A stretch of 54,924 nucleotides of DNA, taken from Marinifilum sp. GTDB taxonomy: Bacteria > Bacteroidota > Bacteroidia > Bacteroidales > CG2-30-32-10. The notes beneath the pieces are model-generated. The model made no database searches. It was not told the origin of the DNA and saw only the letters and a list, made by a program, of their open reading frames with translations. Positions within the stretch are counted from its first letter, which is position 1; the number at the start of each line of letters is the position of its first letter. Below, piece by piece: positions 10,515-54,924 of this stretch. Location: positions 1 to 54,924 of the forward strand of contig DYDE01000006.1 in NCBI GenBank assembly GCA_020718065.1, written 5' to 3'. Position numbers and translations under genes: made by a program.

Positions 10515-10841
10515 ATGAATTTAGAAAATACAAAAGCACAAATGCGAAAAGGGGTACTTGAGTTTTGTATTCTTTCTATTTTGTCTGAAGATGAGGCATA
10601 TGTGTCGGACTTGATCAATAAAATGAAAGATGCAAAACTAATAGTGGTGGAAGGTACCTTGTATCCCTTACTAAATAGATTGAAAAACGAAGGTGTATTA
10701 GAATACCGTTGGGAAGAATCTAAATCGGGTCCACCCCGGAAATATTATAAAATTACCCCAGAGGGTAAAGCAATGCTGGATGAATTAAAACAAAGCTGGC
10801 AAGAATTAATAACCTCTGTTAATTCAATACTATCTATATAA
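10515..10841 (+). CDS. PadR family transcriptional regulator
   Basis: QMRKGVLE..EGTLYPLLNRL..GPPRKYY motifs; ATG at 10515 preferred over TTG at 10479. Confidence 0.92.
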   Translation: MNLENTKAQMRKGVLEFCILSILSEDEAYVSDLINKMKDAKLIVVEGTLYPLLNRLKNEGVLEYRWEESKSGPPRKYYKITPEGKAMLDELKQSWQELITSVNSILSI

Positions 10842-51292: not shown

Positions 51293-53401
51293 TTATTTAA
51301 TTTCAGGAATCAACTCTTTCTTTATAATTGGTTCCTGAGGAACAGGTGTGTAATTTATTTTGGTTCCATCCCACCACATCGGTTGTGCTGCGTTTTTTGT
51401 ATCACTTTCGTTAAACATAAAATTATTTAAATTCTTGTCGAATTTCGTATCCATTATTTCAACTGGATTGTTTGGATTTTCGTATCCTTTTCGGGTTGCA
51501 ACAGCTATCCAGGTAAAAACAACATTTGATTTTCCGTCATTATTTTCAGCTACCGAAAATCCATCTCCCTTGATTTCCTCTATATAAATACTGTTTGACT
51601 TTCCTATTGGAGTAACGGTAACAATAATAGGATCCTTATCAGAAATCATGCTTTGGTAATTGGGGTCGAATTTGATCTCTGCTTTCCCATTTACCAATTG
51701 TCCTTTTCCTTTCATATATACATCCACCGTCATGGATGTGGCAACATAGGTAGCAAAACGTTGTTCGCTTCCATTATTGTTTAATTGAGTAATCACCTCA
51801 TTGGTATAAGATTTTCCATCAACATACAAGCTCATTCTATCACCTTTGATGATAGATCCATAAACCTGACCTCTGAACCATGAGCCCATCAGGGAACCAA
51901 CACCTGCAACACCAATACCTGCAGACGTATTTGATTTTCCACCTCCATTTGCATAGGCTGTTGACCCGTAAACACCGTATTTAATGCCAGCACTCGATTT
52001 ATATCCCAATGTTCCCCAATACACTCCATTTACATCACCTCCAAAAACACCGCCACACCGAGTATAATCGTCATAATTAAAGCCACCAACAGCAAAGGAA
52101 TAAACATCGCCATACAAGTTAATTCCAGAAATGGCATTATTAACAGAAGTCGAAGAATAATTCGATCCGTTGTTTTGGCTATCTCTGTCTCTAAAACTCA
52201 TAATGGTAGCTTGTCCGGTCCCAACTGAAGTTAATTGTTTGCGATAAACAAACAATTGAGATCTGGTAAATATTCCGTAATTTATACTTATGCCGGTTCC
52301 GTTGTCCTGAATCAGAGAATTTCCAAGAACAGATCCACCAGTTGTCCATTTTACCATATAATTTGCAGTTCCTGTTCCGGTCACACCAGTAGGAGTTTGC
52401 CAAGAAGCCAATCCACTTGCGTCAGAAGTTAAAATTTTACCATTTCCGGGGGTACCCCCGGTTATTTTTAGCTGACCATTTACTTCTAATTTTGCACCGG
52501 GAGTTGAAGTACCAATTCCCACATTAGCACCATTATCAAAAATAGTAGAAGTTACCAAAGCAGTTCCATTCCATTTGGATATATAGTTTGCTGTATTTGC
52601 TCCAACTTTAGGGTCCAATTCAGTAAAAGAAGTAAGATATCCGGCAAGTGCATGGTTTCCCCAACCATAGGCTGTATTCCAGTTGTTGATATTTGAAGCT
52701 GTTATTCCATTGGCCACGTGTGAAGTAGTCATAGCATCTGTTATACCATAACCTGAAACAGTGGTAGGTTTGTTGGTAAGGTTATTAAAGTGGAGTTGAG
52801 AATTTCCGCCCGTTTGCATATTTGTTTTGGTATAATAATTTGTTGAAACAGTGCTCCAAACAGGATCAGTTTCTGTATAGGATGTTAAATATCCCTCACT
52901 AGCATGATTACCCCAACCATAAGCTGTATTCCAATTGGCAATATTTAAAGCTGGCAGGTTGCTTAAATTATTATAATCTGCGGTTTCGGCTGTTTTTGCA
53001 TTCAGCGAATAAGGTACCGATAGCAATTGATTTGTTCCTGTGATGGTATAATTGGTTCCTCCAGTTGGGTCGGTTTCTGTTTTAATAAAATAGGGACCGT
53101 TTACCCAATTAATTGTAGAAAATCCTGCACCTCCGCCAATTTCAATACCTACCAAACCATTGGCATTGGTTGTTGGGGTTTGGGTTTCGGAATAGACTTC
53201 TGTTCCTGTAGCAGAACCTTGCAGTATGCTAATCTTCATCCCTACACTATGTGAAACAACCAAAGCATTGCTACTATTGCGTATTACTGCCTGGTAGCTC
53301 ATTTTTTGCGGACTTTGCGCCTGGGTAGGTGAAAGGTAAAAGGCAAAAGGTAAAAGTAATATAGCAAGGATCAATCTCAATTGGGTCGTTTTTTTTATCA
53401 T
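51293..53401 (-). CDS. Secreted fibre-like protein: QSPQKMSYQAVIRN..LLSVPY N-module, NWNTAYGWGNHA/ETDP repeats, NVGIGTSTP, Gly-rich beta region, tail-fibre-like C-domain
   Basis: ORF track 51293-53440; Met at 53401 gives a clean signal peptide; motifs typical of Bacteroidota tail-fibre-like proteins. Confidence 0.78.
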   Translation of the reverse strand: MIKKTTQLRLILAILLLPFAFYLSPTQAQSPQKMSYQAVIRNSSNALVVSHSVGMKISILQGSATGTEVYSETQTPTTNANGLVGIEIGGGAGFSTINWVNGPYFIKTETDPTGGTNYTITGTNQLLSVPYSLNAKTAETADYNNLSNLPALNIANWNTAYGWGNHASEGYLTSYTETDPVWSTVSTNYYTKTNMQTGGNSQLHFNNLTNKPTTVSGYGITDAMTTSHVANGITASNINNWNTAYGWGNHALAGYLTSFTELDPKVGANTANYISKWNGTALVTSTIFDNGANVGIGTSTPGAKLEVNGQLKITGGTPGNGKILTSDASGLASWQTPTGVTGTGTANYMVKWTTGGSVLGNSLIQDNGTGISINYGIFTRSQLFVYRKQLTSVGTGQATIMSFRDRDSQNNGSNYSSTSVNNAISGINLYGDVYSFAVGGFNYDDYTRCGGVFGGDVNGVYWGTLGYKSSAGIKYGVYGSTAYANGGGKSNTSAGIGVAGVGSLMGSWFRGQVYGSIIKGDRMSLYVDGKSYTNEVITQLNNNGSEQRFATYVATSMTVDVYMKGKGQLVNGKAEIKFDPNYQSMISDKDPIIVTVTPIGKSNSIYIEEIKGDGFSVAENNDGKSNVVFTWIAVATRKGYENPNNPVEIMDTKFDKNLNNFMFNESDTKNAAQPMWWDGTKINYTPVPQEPIIKKELIPEIK
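52998..53387. repeat. 390-bp exact direct repeat, copy 1 (copy 2 = 54535-54924)
   Basis: Base-by-base identity at offset 1537. Confidence 0.95.
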
Positions 53402-53463
53402 ATTTATTAATTTTATTTTGTTTACATTAATTTTATACATAATTATTACTCATAAATTAACAT

Positions 53464-53494
53464 TTTTTAATGAGTTAGAAAACTCCACTAAAAA
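53464..53494. other. Hairpin immediately 3' of the putative VR/IMH
   Basis: ttttta-at-gagtt-agaa-aactc-c-ac-taaaaa (plus strand). Confidence 0.55.
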
Positions 53495-53495
53495 G

Positions 53496-53625
53496 TTAAA
53501 AAGCCCGAACAGCACGCACACGGAAAGTGGTGGCCTTAAGGTAGAGGCTCTGGCCGCCAGAGCCGAAGTTCCATACCCACGCGTCGTTGTCATTGTATTC
53601 GCTGGAACTCCAATAGTAGACATTA
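53496..53625 (-). other. Putative DGR variable region (VR) with GC-rich 3' IMH-like end
   Basis: YYWSSSEY..AW..NF..G....K....VRAVRAF; 67 of 120 nt are G/C and 19 of 40 codons end in C, in an AT-rich gene. Confidence 0.75.
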
Positions 53626-54924
53626 GCAAAACCACCAACCGCAACTTTTTGAGCATATAATAAATTTAGTTCATATTTTGAAGGCAAGTACCAATCGCCA
53701 TAAGTCACGCCACCAACAGTTACTGAATAATCGGCACAAACTTTTGCTGCAAAATTGCCAGGTTGGTTATCTGCCATTTGGGTAGCTATTATTATAGCTG
53801 TATTCATTGCACCTGCATACAATCCGTCTCCGGTTGTACCTGTATATCTATTCCTGGTATTGTACCATTGTATACCTCCACTTTGGTCAGTTGTAGCTGC
53901 TATTAATCCGTGTTGCCCTGTGGCATCTAACCAAAATATAATACCACCTTGGTAGTTTTGACCAATAGTAAGAGTTGTTGCTCCTGTTACATTTACCACA
54001 TAAGGGCTTGCAGTTGTTCCACTTCCTGTTATATTTATATTAGTTCCGGAATTTATTTTGGTCTCGGAGCCATCAGTAGTTGGTTTATTGCTTAAGTCGT
54101 TGTAGTTGCCACTGGTTGCAATGGTTGCAAATGTTGGTTTTTCTGTTACATCAGTCCATGATGGAACCCAAGATATTGGGCGATATAAACCTGCATGATT
54201 ACCCCAGCCATAAGTGGTATTCCAATTGGTAATATTTGTTGCGCTTATTCCATTAGCAGGATGAGCTGTAAAGATAGGGTCTGTTTCTGTAAAACTTGTT
54301 AAATATCCAGCAGCAGCATGATTTCCCCAACTATAAGCAGTGTTCCAGTTAGAAATATTTGTAGCACTAATTCCGTTAGCAGGCGATGCTTCAAAGAGGG
54401 GATCAGTTTCTGTATAACTAGTCAAGTATCCTGCTGAAGCATGATTACCCCATCCATATGCTGTATTCCAATTGGCAATATTTAAGGTGGGCAGGTTGGT
54501 TAAATTATTATAATCTGCGGTTTCAGCAGTTTTGGCATTCAGCGAATAAGGTACCGATAGCAATTGATTTGTTCCTGTGATGGTATAATTGGTTCCTCCA
54601 GTTGGGTCGGTTTCTGTTTTAATAAAATAGGGACCGTTTACCCAATTAATTGTAGAAAATCCTGCACCTCCGCCAATTTCAATACCTACCAAACCATTGG
54701 CATTGGTTGTTGGGGTTTGGGTTTCGGAATAGACTTCTGTTCCTGTAGCAGAACCTTGCAGTATGCTAATCTTCATCCCTACACTATGTGAAACAACCAA
54801 AGCATTGCTACTATTGCGTATTACTGCCTGGTAGCTCATTTTTTGCGGACTTTGCGCCTGGGTAGGTGAAAGGTAAAAGGCAAAAGGTAAAAGTAATATA
54901 GCAAGGATCAATCTCAATTGGGTC
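53496..54924 (-). CDS. Secreted fibre-like protein with C-terminal DUF1566/Lcl (CLec-fold) domain; likely DGR target; 5' end cut by the window edge
   Basis: Same N-module as the neighbour; IGQNYQGGIIF..GQHGLIAA; DWYLPSKYELNLLY; YWSSSE; VRAVRAF. Confidence 0.85.
   Translation of the reverse strand, partial: TQLRLILAILLLPFAFYLSPTQAQSPQKMSYQAVIRNSSNALVVSHSVGMKISILQGSATGTEVYSETQTPTTNANGLVGIEIGGGAGFSTINWVNGPYFIKTETDPTGGTNYTITGTNQLLSVPYSLNAKTAETADYNNLTNLPTLNIANWNTAYGWGNHASAGYLTSYTETDPLFEASPANGISATNISNWNTAYSWGNHAAAGYLTSFTETDPIFTAHPANGISATNITNWNTTYGWGNHAGLYRPISWVPSWTDVTEKPTFATIATSGNYNDLSNKPTTDGSETKINSGTNINITGSGTTASPYVVNVTGATTLTIGQNYQGGIIFWLDATGQHGLIAATTDQSGGIQWYNTRNRYTGTTGDGLYAGAMNTAIIIATQMADNQPGNFAAKVCADYSVTVGGVTYGDWYLPSKYELNLLYAQKVAVGGFANVYYWSSSEYNDNDAWVWNFGSGGQSLYLKATTFRVRAVRAF
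54535..54924. repeat. 390-bp exact direct repeat, copy 2
   Basis: Identical to 52998-53387; runs off the window end. Confidence 0.95.

What the first reader, a model, noticed from the sequence alone, without database searches (positions are those of the whole stretch)
53464..53700. Orphan DGR target: hypervariable-looking CLec tip on a secreted fibre protein
Seen: the last 40 sense codons before TTT TAA (GTC TAC TAT TGG AGT TCC AGC GAA TAC AAT GAC AAC GAC GCG TGG GTA TGG AAC TTC GGC TCT GGC GGC CAG AGC CTC TAC CTT AAG GCC ACC ACT TTC CGT GTG CGT GCT GTT CGG GCT) are 56% GC with 19/40 NNC codons, unlike the A/T-ending codons upstream. The gene ends in gtgcgtgctgttcgggctttttaa, followed at once by a hairpin. 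Known: DGR VRs lie at the C-terminus of CLec-fold (DUF1566/FGE-like) domains, arise by A-to-N mutagenesis of AAC/AAT-rich templates, and are followed by an IMH and a DNA hairpin. Inference: this VR has been diversified from a template like ...TAT TGG AGT TCC .. GAA AAC AAT AAC AAC AAC GCG TGG .. .. AAC TTC AAC AAT GGC AAC CAG AAC AAC AAC AAT AAG AAC AAC .. AAC .. GTG CGT GCT GTT CGG GCT. No TR, RT or avd is visible here, so the target would be served from beyond the window edge or in trans.
Basis: partly seen in the sequence, partly recalled or inferred. Interest (0 to 1): 0.85.

Follow-up and report, generated by a model that had tools for sequence, protein, structure and literature searches.

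The report
Orphan DGR variable region, machinery missing
The tip of this secreted fibre protein was rewritten by a diversity-generating retroelement, but this genome assembly holds no copy of the rewriting machinery, so the tip is probably a frozen relic.

Summary
The last ~40 codons of the minus-strand gene ending at 53496 have GC3 0.66, against 0.27 for the rest of the gene, in a 30.7% GC genome. Only 1 of 33,043 genome windows of 123 nt reaches 55% GC.

It is a genuine DGR variable region (VR). A same-family genome (G002) carries complete target-avd-TR-RT cassettes. Against one of its template repeats (TR), our VR differs at 30 of 54 template adenines but at only 7 of 83 other bases (p 1.7e-9). 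At the template's 19 AAC/AAT codons, bases 1-2 changed in 23 of 38 cases and base 3 in 1 of 19. The domain is Lcl_C/DUF1566 with a C-type-lectin (CLec) fold.

The assembly (90% complete, no contig under ~5 kb) has no TR, no DGR-type RT and no Avd. A second VR on contig C92 sits beside a frameshifted, truncated avd stub. The same-genus genome G001 shows a similar truncation.

Best reading: a remote DGR target whose machinery was lost (about 0.55). The main rival is a cassette on an unbinned short contig (about 0.35). This is a new member of a known kind and of modest interest.

The parts
53496..54924 (-). Target gene. It encodes a fibre-like protein with a signal peptide: an N-terminal module, three NWNTAYGWGNH-type repeats, and a C-terminal Lcl_C domain. 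The gene runs off the window. Its start, ATG MNKKTTQLRL..., lies at C127:55093, beyond a 118-N scaffold gap (54925-55042) whose two flanks are duplicates of each other.
   Evidence: ORF list; gene start and gap; NF053851 Bdello_MAT_N at E 4.8e-8, below its cut-off, and adhesin_Lcl
53499..53933 (-). C-terminal Lcl_C / DUF1566 domain with a C-type-lectin-like fold. This is the scaffold that carries the VR.
   Evidence: Pfam PF07603 at E 4.5e-10, above its cut-off. PDB sequence match to 8q4e at E 1.2e-15. AlphaFold2 model with pLDDT 93.4. Foldseek top hit is the Lcl C-terminal domain 8q4e at E 6.4e-9, followed by 4eps, snake C-type lectins and Bd2740.
53504..53644 (-). Variable region: the stretch homologous to the template repeats of this DGR lineage.
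   Evidence: blastn of TRs from loci L051, L055, L059, L060 and L066 aligns to 53640/53644-53495. A sites changed 30 of 54 and non-A sites 7 of 83 against TR L051, p 1.7e-9; 27 of 50 and 7 of 87 against L060.
53520..53621 (-). The mutagenised codons, from GTC to CGT. At the template's AAC/AAT codons, bases 1-2 are scrambled and base 3 is kept.
   Evidence: Against TR L051: 19 AAY codons, positions 1-2 changed 23 of 38, position 3 changed 1 of 19. GC3 0.66.
53495..53519 (-). VR-type 3' end, IMH-like: GTGCGTGCTGTTCGGGCTTTTTAAC, including the stop codon. It is identical to the ends of cassette-adjacent VRs in G002 and to the VR on own contig C92. TRs end differently, in ...CGGGGTTTTAAAC.
53457..53499 (-). 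AT-rich imperfect hairpin directly after the stop. It is weak and is not the lineage's conserved ACCGCGAAGCGGT hairpin.
   Evidence: strand folding: dG -6.4, z -1.7, 9 of 200 shuffles fold as well; comparison of VR downstream regions
51293..53440 (-). Tandem downstream fibre gene (715 aa). It shares 525 nt of N-terminal coding sequence with the target at 96% identity but has a different C-terminal part without Lcl_C. It is context, not a DGR target.

Best explanation
Window 53504-53644 (minus strand) is a true DGR variable region.

How it was made. A reverse transcriptase copied a template-repeat RNA into cDNA and misread adenines. That cDNA replaced the 3' end of this gene, up to the conserved GC-rich end GTGCGTGCTGTTCGGGC. 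Roughly 19 template AAY codons, which line the ligand-binding face of a C-type-lectin-fold (Lcl_C/DUF1566) tip, were rewritten. The tip belongs to a secreted fibre or adhesin-like protein. The gene is a remote target: it has no cassette beside it, like its syntenic orthologue in G002.

What is shown (about 0.95): the VR was DGR-written, from a TR of a cellular, mostly Bacteroidota DGR lineage.

What is inferred (about 0.55): in this organism the machinery is gone, and the tip is now a frozen product of past diversification that evolves only by ordinary mutation. The assembly has no TR, RT or Avd. The one cassette trace in the genome, beside a second VR on contig C92, is a frameshifted and truncated avd with TR and RT deleted.
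For: 1. A-specific mismatches against real TRs.
- Against TR L051, identical in sequence to the TR on G002 contig C483: A sites changed 30 of 54, non-A sites 7 of 83, Fisher p 1.7e-9.
- Against L060: 27 of 50 and 7 of 87, p 4e-9.
- Cognate VR/TR pairs in G002 give 18 of 50 with 2 of 87, and 23 of 54 with 2 of 83.

2. Codon-position test. At 19 template AAY codons, positions 1-2 changed 23 of 38 and position 3 changed 1 of 19. This is the opposite of ordinary divergence.

3. Composition. VR GC3 is 0.66 against 0.27 for the rest of the gene. Only 1 of 33,043 genome windows reaches GC 0.55.

4. The VR-type 3' end is identical to that of active VRs and differs from the TR end.

5. A same-family genome, G002, holds complete target-avd-TR-RT cassettes. 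Its Avd scores as PF22296 and NF033474, and its RT as RVT_1. In 17 open frames from cassette-bearing loci (16 distinct proteins) the RT lies next to the TR.

6. CLec fold.

7. No machinery in the own assembly.
- The PF00078 search finds only a split group II intron RT with a GIIM domain on C138.
- tblastn with Brt and with the G002 RT finds nothing else.
- A profile built from 16 lineage RTs finds only that intron fragment, at 25.6 bits.
- TR blastn hits only the VRs.
- No bAvd scores above its cut-off.

8. Decay is seen directly.
- On C92, homology to the G002 cassette ends 164 nt past the VR end. The avd stub reads 19 codons in frame, then shifts frame and stops.
- In same-genus G001, avd is cut after about 60 codons and followed by a transposase-like ORF, with no RT.

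9. RT-less VR-type ends recur. I checked 13 genomes that hold such an end motif. Four have a lineage RT: G002, G100, G258, and a fragment with a stop in G053. Nine do not. Among the nine is G012 (96% complete), whose VR shows A 19 of 50 and non-A 3 of 86.
Against: Against the 'lost/frozen' part:
- The assembly is a 90%-complete bin with no contig under 4,981 bases, while the G002 cassettes lie on contigs of 3.5-5.3 kb. A cassette on a short contig would simply not be in the bin.
- The VR has the highest GC3 of the five Lcl_C paralogues, and its 25-nt end is intact. It was therefore written recently, or is still being written.
- The 7 non-A mismatches to the best TRs are no more than the differences between TRs (9 of 137 between the two G002 TRs). 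They do not prove drift after homing.
- No read-level data could be had. Only assembled contigs of public runs were available, and these cannot show variants.

Against the 'DGR-written' part:
- The cognate TR was not found.
- A sites coincide with the naturally variable positions of the fold, so the Fisher test alone would overstate the case. The third-base test answers this objection.
Confidence: 0.55

Rival explanations
1. Live remote target. The organism still has a working DGR cassette (avd-TR-RT, probably with its own adjacent target) that is missing from this bin. It would lie on a contig under 5 kb or in the unassembled 10%, and it diversifies this VR in trans through the intact 3' end.
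For: - The bin has no contig under 4,981 bases and is 90% complete.
- Cassettes of the relative G002 sit on contigs of 3.5-5.3 kb.
- The VR end is letter-perfect relative to active VRs.
- GC3 of 0.66 is the highest among the paralogues.
- Remote targets served in trans are documented for non-phage DGRs (Wu et al. 2018, PMC5758913, passages read).
- A preprint notes that binning loses such elements (PMC11601372, passage read).
Against: - No TR, RT or Avd was found by five different searches of the assembly.
- The one cassette that can be seen, on C92, is broken, and so is the one in the same-genus genome.
- The lineage's conserved hairpin is absent downstream of this VR.
- The VR carries at least 2-3 non-A differences from every TR seen (GAG>GAA, CAG>TGG, GGC>GGT).
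Confidence: 0.35
2. Not DGR-made. The GC-rich, NNC-rich tail is only the conserved sequence of an Lcl_C paralogue family, kept by gene conversion between paralogues or brought in by horizontal transfer from a GC-richer donor. The similarity to TRs reflects common ancestry of TRs and Lcl_C genes.
For: - Five Lcl_C paralogues exist in the genome.
- The 25-nt end is shared with the C92 paralogue, as gene conversion could produce.
- No cognate TR was found.
Against: - Third codon bases match the templates (18 of 19) while bases 1-2 are scrambled (23 of 38). Neither conversion nor transfer explains this.
- The anomaly is confined to the TR-homologous ~140 nt.
- The paralogues C72, C173 and C167 lack the anomaly, with GC3 of 0.32, 0.20 and 0.15.
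- The C92 copy is physically followed by an avd remnant.
Confidence: 0.04

Closest known systems
DGR cassettes of same-family genome G002 (loci L024 and L025: target-avd-TR-RT)
   Same: - The same VR scaffold sequence and the same 3' end, GTGCG(T/C)GCTGTTCGGGCTTTTTAA.
- The same Lcl_C target domain ending ...VRAVRAF.
- Their TRs explain our VR by A-only changes, apart from 7-10 other bases.
- G002 contig C119 holds a syntenic remote-target orthologue: the same upstream 162-aa T9SS-sorted gene, and 72% identity in the tip domain.
   Different: - G002 has the RT (three or more copies), Avd and TRs. G000 has none.
- Cassette-adjacent VRs in G002 carry the ACCGCGAAGCGGT hairpin, which ours lacks.
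Legionella pneumophila DGR / LdtA (DUF1566, 'category d', CLec2 VRs of Wu et al. 2018)
   Same: The VR lies at the C-terminus of a DUF1566/Lcl_C-type domain of a surface-exposed protein (passages of PMC5758913 read). The Lcl C-terminal domain is our best structural match.
   Different: LdtA is a lipoprotein next to its own cassette. Ours is a fibre-like protein with a type-I-looking signal peptide (my reading), it is remote from any cassette, and the genome assembly has no RT.
Treponema denticola DGR with remote targets
   Same: One cassette serves several non-adjacent targets through a shared VR end. Seven non-adjacent targets are reported in PMC5758913 (passage read).
   Different: In Treponema the RT and TR are present in the genome. 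That its targets use the FGE-sulfatase type of CLec domain is recalled, not read.
[quoted passage not shown]
   Same: These are Bacteroidota systems in which adhesin tips are diversified and cassettes move horizontally (passages read). The second Foldseek hit, 4eps, is a Bacteroides fimbrial protein.
   Different: The target architecture differs (pilins versus a fibre with Lcl_C). There the cassette travels together with its target.
Bordetella phage BPP-1 mtd-avd-TR-brt
   Same: The mechanism, and the gene order target-avd-TR-RT (annotated record).
   Different: BPP-1 is phage-borne with an Mtd-type CLec target. The TR-type end of our lineage was found in 0 of about 2.9 million viral contigs.

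Membership tests
DGR variable region (target of mutagenic retrohoming) | VR at the 3' end of a gene, inside a CLec-fold (here Lcl_C/DUF1566) domain | tested here: met
   Pfam PF07603 above its cut-off; AlphaFold2 model with Foldseek hit to the Lcl C-terminal domain at E 6.4e-9, plus C-type lectins; PDB sequence match
DGR variable region (target of mutagenic retrohoming) | Differences from a template repeat confined to template adenines | tested here: met
   Tested against heterologous TRs only. A sites 30 of 54 against non-A 7 of 83 (L051); 27 of 50 against 7 of 87 (L060). AAY codons: positions 1-2 changed 23 of 38, position 3 changed 1 of 19. The 7 non-A mismatches mean none of these is the cognate TR.
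DGR variable region (target of mutagenic retrohoming) | A cognate TR in the same genome | tested here: not met
   blastn with word size 7, using the VR and five TRs as queries against all 206 contigs, finds only VRs and paralogues. The search for the TR-type end motif gives no true hit.
DGR variable region (target of mutagenic retrohoming) | A DGR-type reverse transcriptase in the same genome | tested here: not met
   PF00078 finds only a split group II intron RT. tblastn with Brt and with the G002 RT, a whole-genome protein search and a 16-RT profile find nothing else. The assembly is 90% complete and has no contig under about 5 kb.
DGR variable region (target of mutagenic retrohoming) | Avd accessory protein | tested here: not met
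   No PF22296 match above its cut-off in the genome. There is only a frameshifted stub on C92. The upstream four-helix-bundle gene scores as PF05635/TIGR02436 and gives no NF033474 or PF22296 hit.
DGR variable region (target of mutagenic retrohoming) | Conserved VR 3' end (IMH) that differs slightly from the TR 3' end (IMH*) | tested here: met
   The VR ends ...CGGGCTTTTTAAC, as do active VRs. TRs end ...CGGGGTTTTAAAC.
DGR variable region (target of mutagenic retrohoming) | Hairpin downstream of the VR as in the lineage's cassette-adjacent VRs | tested here: not met
   There is only an AT-rich hairpin with z -1.7. The ACCGCGAAGCGGT element seen after the VRs of L010, L023, L024 and L025 is absent.
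DGR variable region (target of mutagenic retrohoming) | Ongoing diversification (population polymorphism at A-derived sites) | not testable with these tools
   Only assembled contigs of public runs were served. The one contig that spans the VR, in the likely source run, is identical to the window. No orthologue above 84% identity was found in metagenome contigs.
Avd (for the four-helix-bundle gene just upstream, C127:55114-55458) | Match to the Avd models (NF033474 / PF22296) | tested here: not met
   It scores as PF05635 at E 6.7e-32 and TIGR02436, with no Avd model hit. It is one of 14 PF05635 matches in the genome.
Bdellovibrio mosaic adhesive trimer (MAT) fibre | N-terminal MAT domain above the curated cut-off | tested here: inconclusive
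   NF053851 at E 4.8e-8 and 33 bits, against a cut-off of 60. The tandem paralogue scores 31.7 bits. The Bd2740 C-terminal domain is a weak fold hit at E 0.1.

The most novel reading that the evidence does not exclude
RT-less VRs with intact ends may be standing 'landing pads'. The TR 3' end of this lineage is letter-identical (19 nt) in 16 genome contigs whose record titles span Bacteroidota, Proteobacteria, Atribacteria and Chloroflexota; 13 of them hold an extractable TR-like repeat, one lies too near its contig end to extract, and two carry the 19-mer alone. Nine of the 13 genomes I checked that hold a VR-type end motif lack the RT. An incoming mobile cassette of the same lineage could therefore re-diversify resident chromosomal adhesin genes such as this one. 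Evolvability would then be gained and lost as a transferable module, while the targets stay behind.
Probability: 0.2. Interest if true: 0.55.

Novelty: new member of a known kind. Interest (0 to 1): 0.3.

Why it matters
DGR surveys start from the reverse transcriptase, so targets that have outlived or been separated from their cassette go uncounted. Here a VR can be recognised with confidence from sequence alone. The signs are its composition, the scrambling of codon bases 1-2 with base 3 kept, and its conserved end. A broken cassette elsewhere in the same genome shows one way such orphans arise.

If orphans are as common as in the small sample here (9 of 13 genomes holding a VR-type end motif lack the RT), past DGR activity has shaped more surface adhesins than RT-based counts suggest.

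For this organism, the finding marks the fibre tip at 53520-53621 as the ligand-binding face.

Tried and rejected
- Reads. The look-up of sequencing runs gave only assembled contigs. When laid, one contig of the likely source run X1 covers 53366-54489 with 0 differences. The 'joints' at 53520>53595 are paralogues that share the VR end. In X2 an exact 151-nt contig stops at 53623, the 5' edge of the VR, and nothing covers the VR. That is a gap in cover, not evidence of variation. No conclusion on activity is drawn.
- Metagenome orthologues. The search for related loci kept 80 loci. The best were 79-84% identical, so no near-identical strain was available for a VR comparison. Seven VR/TR-like ends were found among them.
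- G282, a 3-contig genome without the RT, as proof of true orphans. Its four VR-like ends fit the TRs poorly, with 18-44 non-A mismatches of 85-86, so it is not used as support.
- The upstream four-helix-bundle gene as the missing avd. Rejected.
- The C138 RT as the DGR RT. Rejected: it has a group II intron maturase domain and is split across two frames.
- Phage origin of the lineage. The TR-type end occurs in 0 viral contigs.
- Literature. Searches for 'orphan' + 'variable region' + DGR (5 papers held all three terms and I opened none of them, judging the four listed from the search listing alone), DGR + DUF1566 and DGR + 'template repeat' + 'remnant' were run. I then read passages of PMC5758913, PMC8144416 and PMC11601372. 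None of these showed a description of RT-less VR relics. Supplementary tables, such as Table S1 of PMC5758913, were closed and may list this lineage.
- My first regex was too strict and found one locus. It was replaced by the search.
- VR_G002_C119 has an extra codon, so its ungapped counts are invalid and are not used.
Full report
WHAT IS THERE. The finding lies at the 3' end of a minus-strand gene, 53496-54924 in the window. The window is bases 1-54924 of a 62,955-base contig, C127, of a 206-contig, 4.08-Mb, 90%-complete assembly. The gene runs into a 118-N scaffold gap at 54925-55042 whose two flanks repeat each other. Its start, MNKKTTQLRLILAILLLPFAFYLSPTQAQ..., lies at C127:55093. The product has a signal peptide and an N-terminal module that weakly matches the Bdellovibrio mosaic-adhesive-trimer N-domain (33 bits, cut-off 60). 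It also has three NWNTAYGWGNH-type repeats and a C-terminal Lcl_C/DUF1566 domain (PF07603, E 4.5e-10). A model of the last 145 residues (pLDDT 93.4) matches the Legionella Lcl C-terminal domain best (8q4e, E 6.4e-9). The next matches are a Bacteroides fimbrial protein and many C-type lectins (sequence match).

THE OBSERVATION. The last 41 codons have GC 0.54, GC3 0.66 and NNC 0.46. The other 433 codons have 0.40, 0.27 and 0.17, and the genome has 30.7% GC. Only 1 of 33,043 non-overlapping 123-nt genome windows reaches 55% GC. The hairpin after the stop exists but is AT-rich and weak (dG -6.4, z -1.7, 9 of 200 shuffles fold as well).

IS IT A DGR VARIABLE REGION? No TR-like copy exists in the genome. 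A word-7 blastn of the region finds only four Lcl_C paralogues, on C72, C92, C173 and C167. One of them, on C92, shares the last 25-27 nt exactly.

A search of 60 relatives with the tip domain gave short extra matches, covering only residues ~96-145, next to full-length ones in genome G002 of the same family. Reading those contigs showed textbook cassettes of target, avd, TR and RT. The Avd scores as PF22296/NF033474 and the RT as RVT_1.

The G002 TRs align without gaps to our VR. A sites changed 30 of 54 and non-A sites 7 of 83 against one TR (Fisher p 1.7e-9). Against the other the figures are 27 of 50 and 10 of 87. True VR/TR pairs in G002 give 2 of 87 and 2 of 83 at non-A sites.

Template adenines sit in the codons that the fold lets vary, so I added a test that ordinary divergence cannot pass. 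At the 19 AAC/AAT codons of TR L051, bases 1-2 changed in 23 of 38 cases and the synonymous third base in 1 of 19.

A scan of species-representative genomes for the TR-type end (GCTGTTCGGGGTTTTAAAC) found 16 contigs. Of the 16, 13 gave an extractable TR-like repeat, three of them offset from the ungapped alignment by a small insertion or deletion, so their counts are not meaningful. One match (L058) lay too close to its contig end to extract, although an RT open frame lies beside it. Two (L062, L063) held the 19-mer with no TR-like sequence. Record titles are mostly Bacteroidota, with some Proteobacteria, Atribacteria and Chloroflexota MAGs. The best fits to our VR are L051 and L060, each with 7 non-A mismatches. 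An RT lies beside the TR in these loci: 17 open frames, 16 distinct, matched the G002 RT at E of 6e-65 or better.

I put the DGR origin of this stretch at about 0.95.

WHERE IS THE MACHINERY? It is not in the assembly.
- PF00078 finds only a group II intron RT on C138, split over two frames and carrying a GIIM domain.
- tblastn with BPP-1 Brt and with the G002 RT finds nothing more.
- A profile of 16 lineage RTs finds only that intron fragment, at 25.6 bits.
- Five TRs used as blastn queries hit only the VRs.
- No bAvd match reaches its cut-off.
- The gene just upstream of the target (C127:55114-55458) is a four-helix-bundle protein. It scores as PF05635/TIGR02436, is one of 14 PF05635 matches in the genome, and is not Avd.
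- The rest of the contig holds ordinary chromosomal genes.

A CASSETTE CAUGHT DECAYING. The VR on C92 ends a 267-aa Lcl_C gene. It is followed by the lineage's spacer and by the first ~35 codons of avd. Nineteen codons are in frame, then the frame shifts and a stop follows. Homology to the G002 cassette ends 164 nt past the VR end, and an unrelated gene follows. TR and RT are gone.

In the only other species of the genus (G001, 75% complete) a VR with the exact end and the lineage hairpin is followed by a ~90-nt insert. After that comes an avd cut off after ~60 codons and a transposase-like ORF. No RT was found there.

The five Lcl_C tips of the genome form a series in GC3: 0.66 (C127), 0.56 (C92), 0.32, 0.20 and 0.15. 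This is what written-then-abandoned VRs drifting toward the AT-rich genome would look like, although the last three may never have been targets.

HOW COMMON ARE ORPHANS? In the family, 5 of 13 genomes hold the 16-mer end with at most 1 mismatch, and only G002 has lineage RTs. G012 has hits at only 26-28% identity. In 301 genomes of the order, 26 hold the 18-mer VR-type end with at most 1 mismatch, while a reversed control pattern gave 9 hits. I checked 10 of the 25 non-own genomes for the RT. G100, G258 and G053 (a fragment with a stop) have it, and seven do not. Together with G000, G001 and G002, that makes 4 of 13 with the RT and 9 of 13 without. G012 (96% complete, VR on a 380-kb contig) has A sites 19 of 50 and non-A 3 of 86 changed. 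These are kin and mostly MAGs, so the proportion is only indicative.

WHY THE 'LOST' READING IS NOT SAFE. The bin has no contig shorter than 4,981 bases, and the G002 cassettes sit on contigs of 3.5-5.3 kb. A cassette could therefore exist and simply be missing from the bin. The VR end is intact, and the VR is the most template-like in its third codon bases. The 7 non-A mismatches equal the TR-to-TR differences (9 of 137). Only three of them (GGC>GGT, GAG>GAA and CAG>TGG) are unmatched by any TR I saw. Public runs gave only contigs, and no near-identical strain was found. My odds are: relic 0.55, live target of an unassembled cassette 0.35, other 0.1.

MECHANISM.
- Shown: the A-specific rewriting, the CLec scaffold, the conserved end, and the absence of machinery from the assembly.
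- Inferred from the established DGR model (BPP-1 record; Wu et al. 2018, passages read): RT and Avd copy TR RNA with adenine misincorporation, and the cDNA replaces the VR up to the conserved end. A remote target can be served in trans.
- Recalled only: that a downstream hairpin aids homing in BPP-1.

The syntenic orthologue in G002 (C119) has the same upstream 162-aa T9SS-sorted gene and no adjacent cassette. This shows that the gene is of the remote-target kind.

COMPARISON AND NOVELTY. This is a CLec2/DUF1566 ('category d') VR in the terms of Wu et al. 2018, so it is a new member of a known kind. The somewhat new point is the state it is in: an RT-less genome assembly with two freshly written-looking VRs and a visibly decayed cassette. 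I found no description of such relics in three literature searches or in the passages I read. Supplements were closed. The TR-type end was absent from about 2.9 million viral contigs, which fits a cellular DGR lineage. Interest is modest: a specialist would not be surprised, but the case is clean.

Noticed in passing
window 51293-53440 and 53496-54924 (both minus strand): Two tandem fibre genes share 525 nt of N-terminal coding sequence at 96% identity but carry different C-terminal parts. This is a mosaic same-stalk, different-tip arrangement. Both N-termini weakly match the Bdellovibrio MAT fibre N-domain. The repeat probably caused the scaffold gap with duplicated flanks right at the window end (C127:54925-55042).
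   Followed up: partly
outside the window: C127:55114-55458 and 55516-56004; paralogous locus C72:26304-28689: The gene order of a 162-aa T9SS-sorted protein, a four-helix-bundle protein (PF05635) and a fibre with an Lcl_C tip occurs twice in the genome. The two four-helix-bundle proteins look unlike each other by eye; I ran no comparison. The syntenic G002:C119 locus has no such gene. Why an Avd-superfamily gene sits directly upstream of these fibre genes is unexplained.
   Followed up: partly
own genome, contig C138:19447-20410 (locus L001): This is the only reverse transcriptase of the assembly. It is a group II intron RT/maturase (RVT_1 plus GIIM) split over two overlapping frames, so it is probably frameshifted. 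The best-scoring PF05635 gene of the genome lies about 4 kb away, at C138:15237-15551.
   Followed up: partly
own genome, contig C92:4140-4460: A second DGR VR closes a 267-aa lipoprotein-like Lcl_C gene, with a frameshifted avd stub directly downstream. Its TR type is closer to L059, L060 and L066 than to L051, so the two VRs of this genome may stem from different templates.
   Followed up: yes
loci L051-L066 (genome contigs): The last 19 nt of the TR, and most of the TR itself, are nearly identical in MAGs titled Bacteroidetes, Flavobacteriales, Bacteroidales, Ferruginibacter, Atribacteria, Proteobacteria, Methylococcaceae and Chloroflexota. This suggests recent horizontal spread of one DGR lineage, or mis-binning.
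   Followed up: no
locus L048 (G001:C123), about 10,560-10,650: A ~90-nt insert with internal inverted symmetry (GCGAAAGGCGAGAGCAATGCC...GCATTGCCAAGCCGAGC) lies between the VR hairpin and the truncated avd. It may be a miniature mobile element.
   Followed up: no
own genome, 14 places: There are fourteen matches to the 23S-rRNA-IVP four-helix-bundle family in a 4-Mb genome, twelve of them above the cut-off. That is an unusually large family of unknown role.
   Followed up: no
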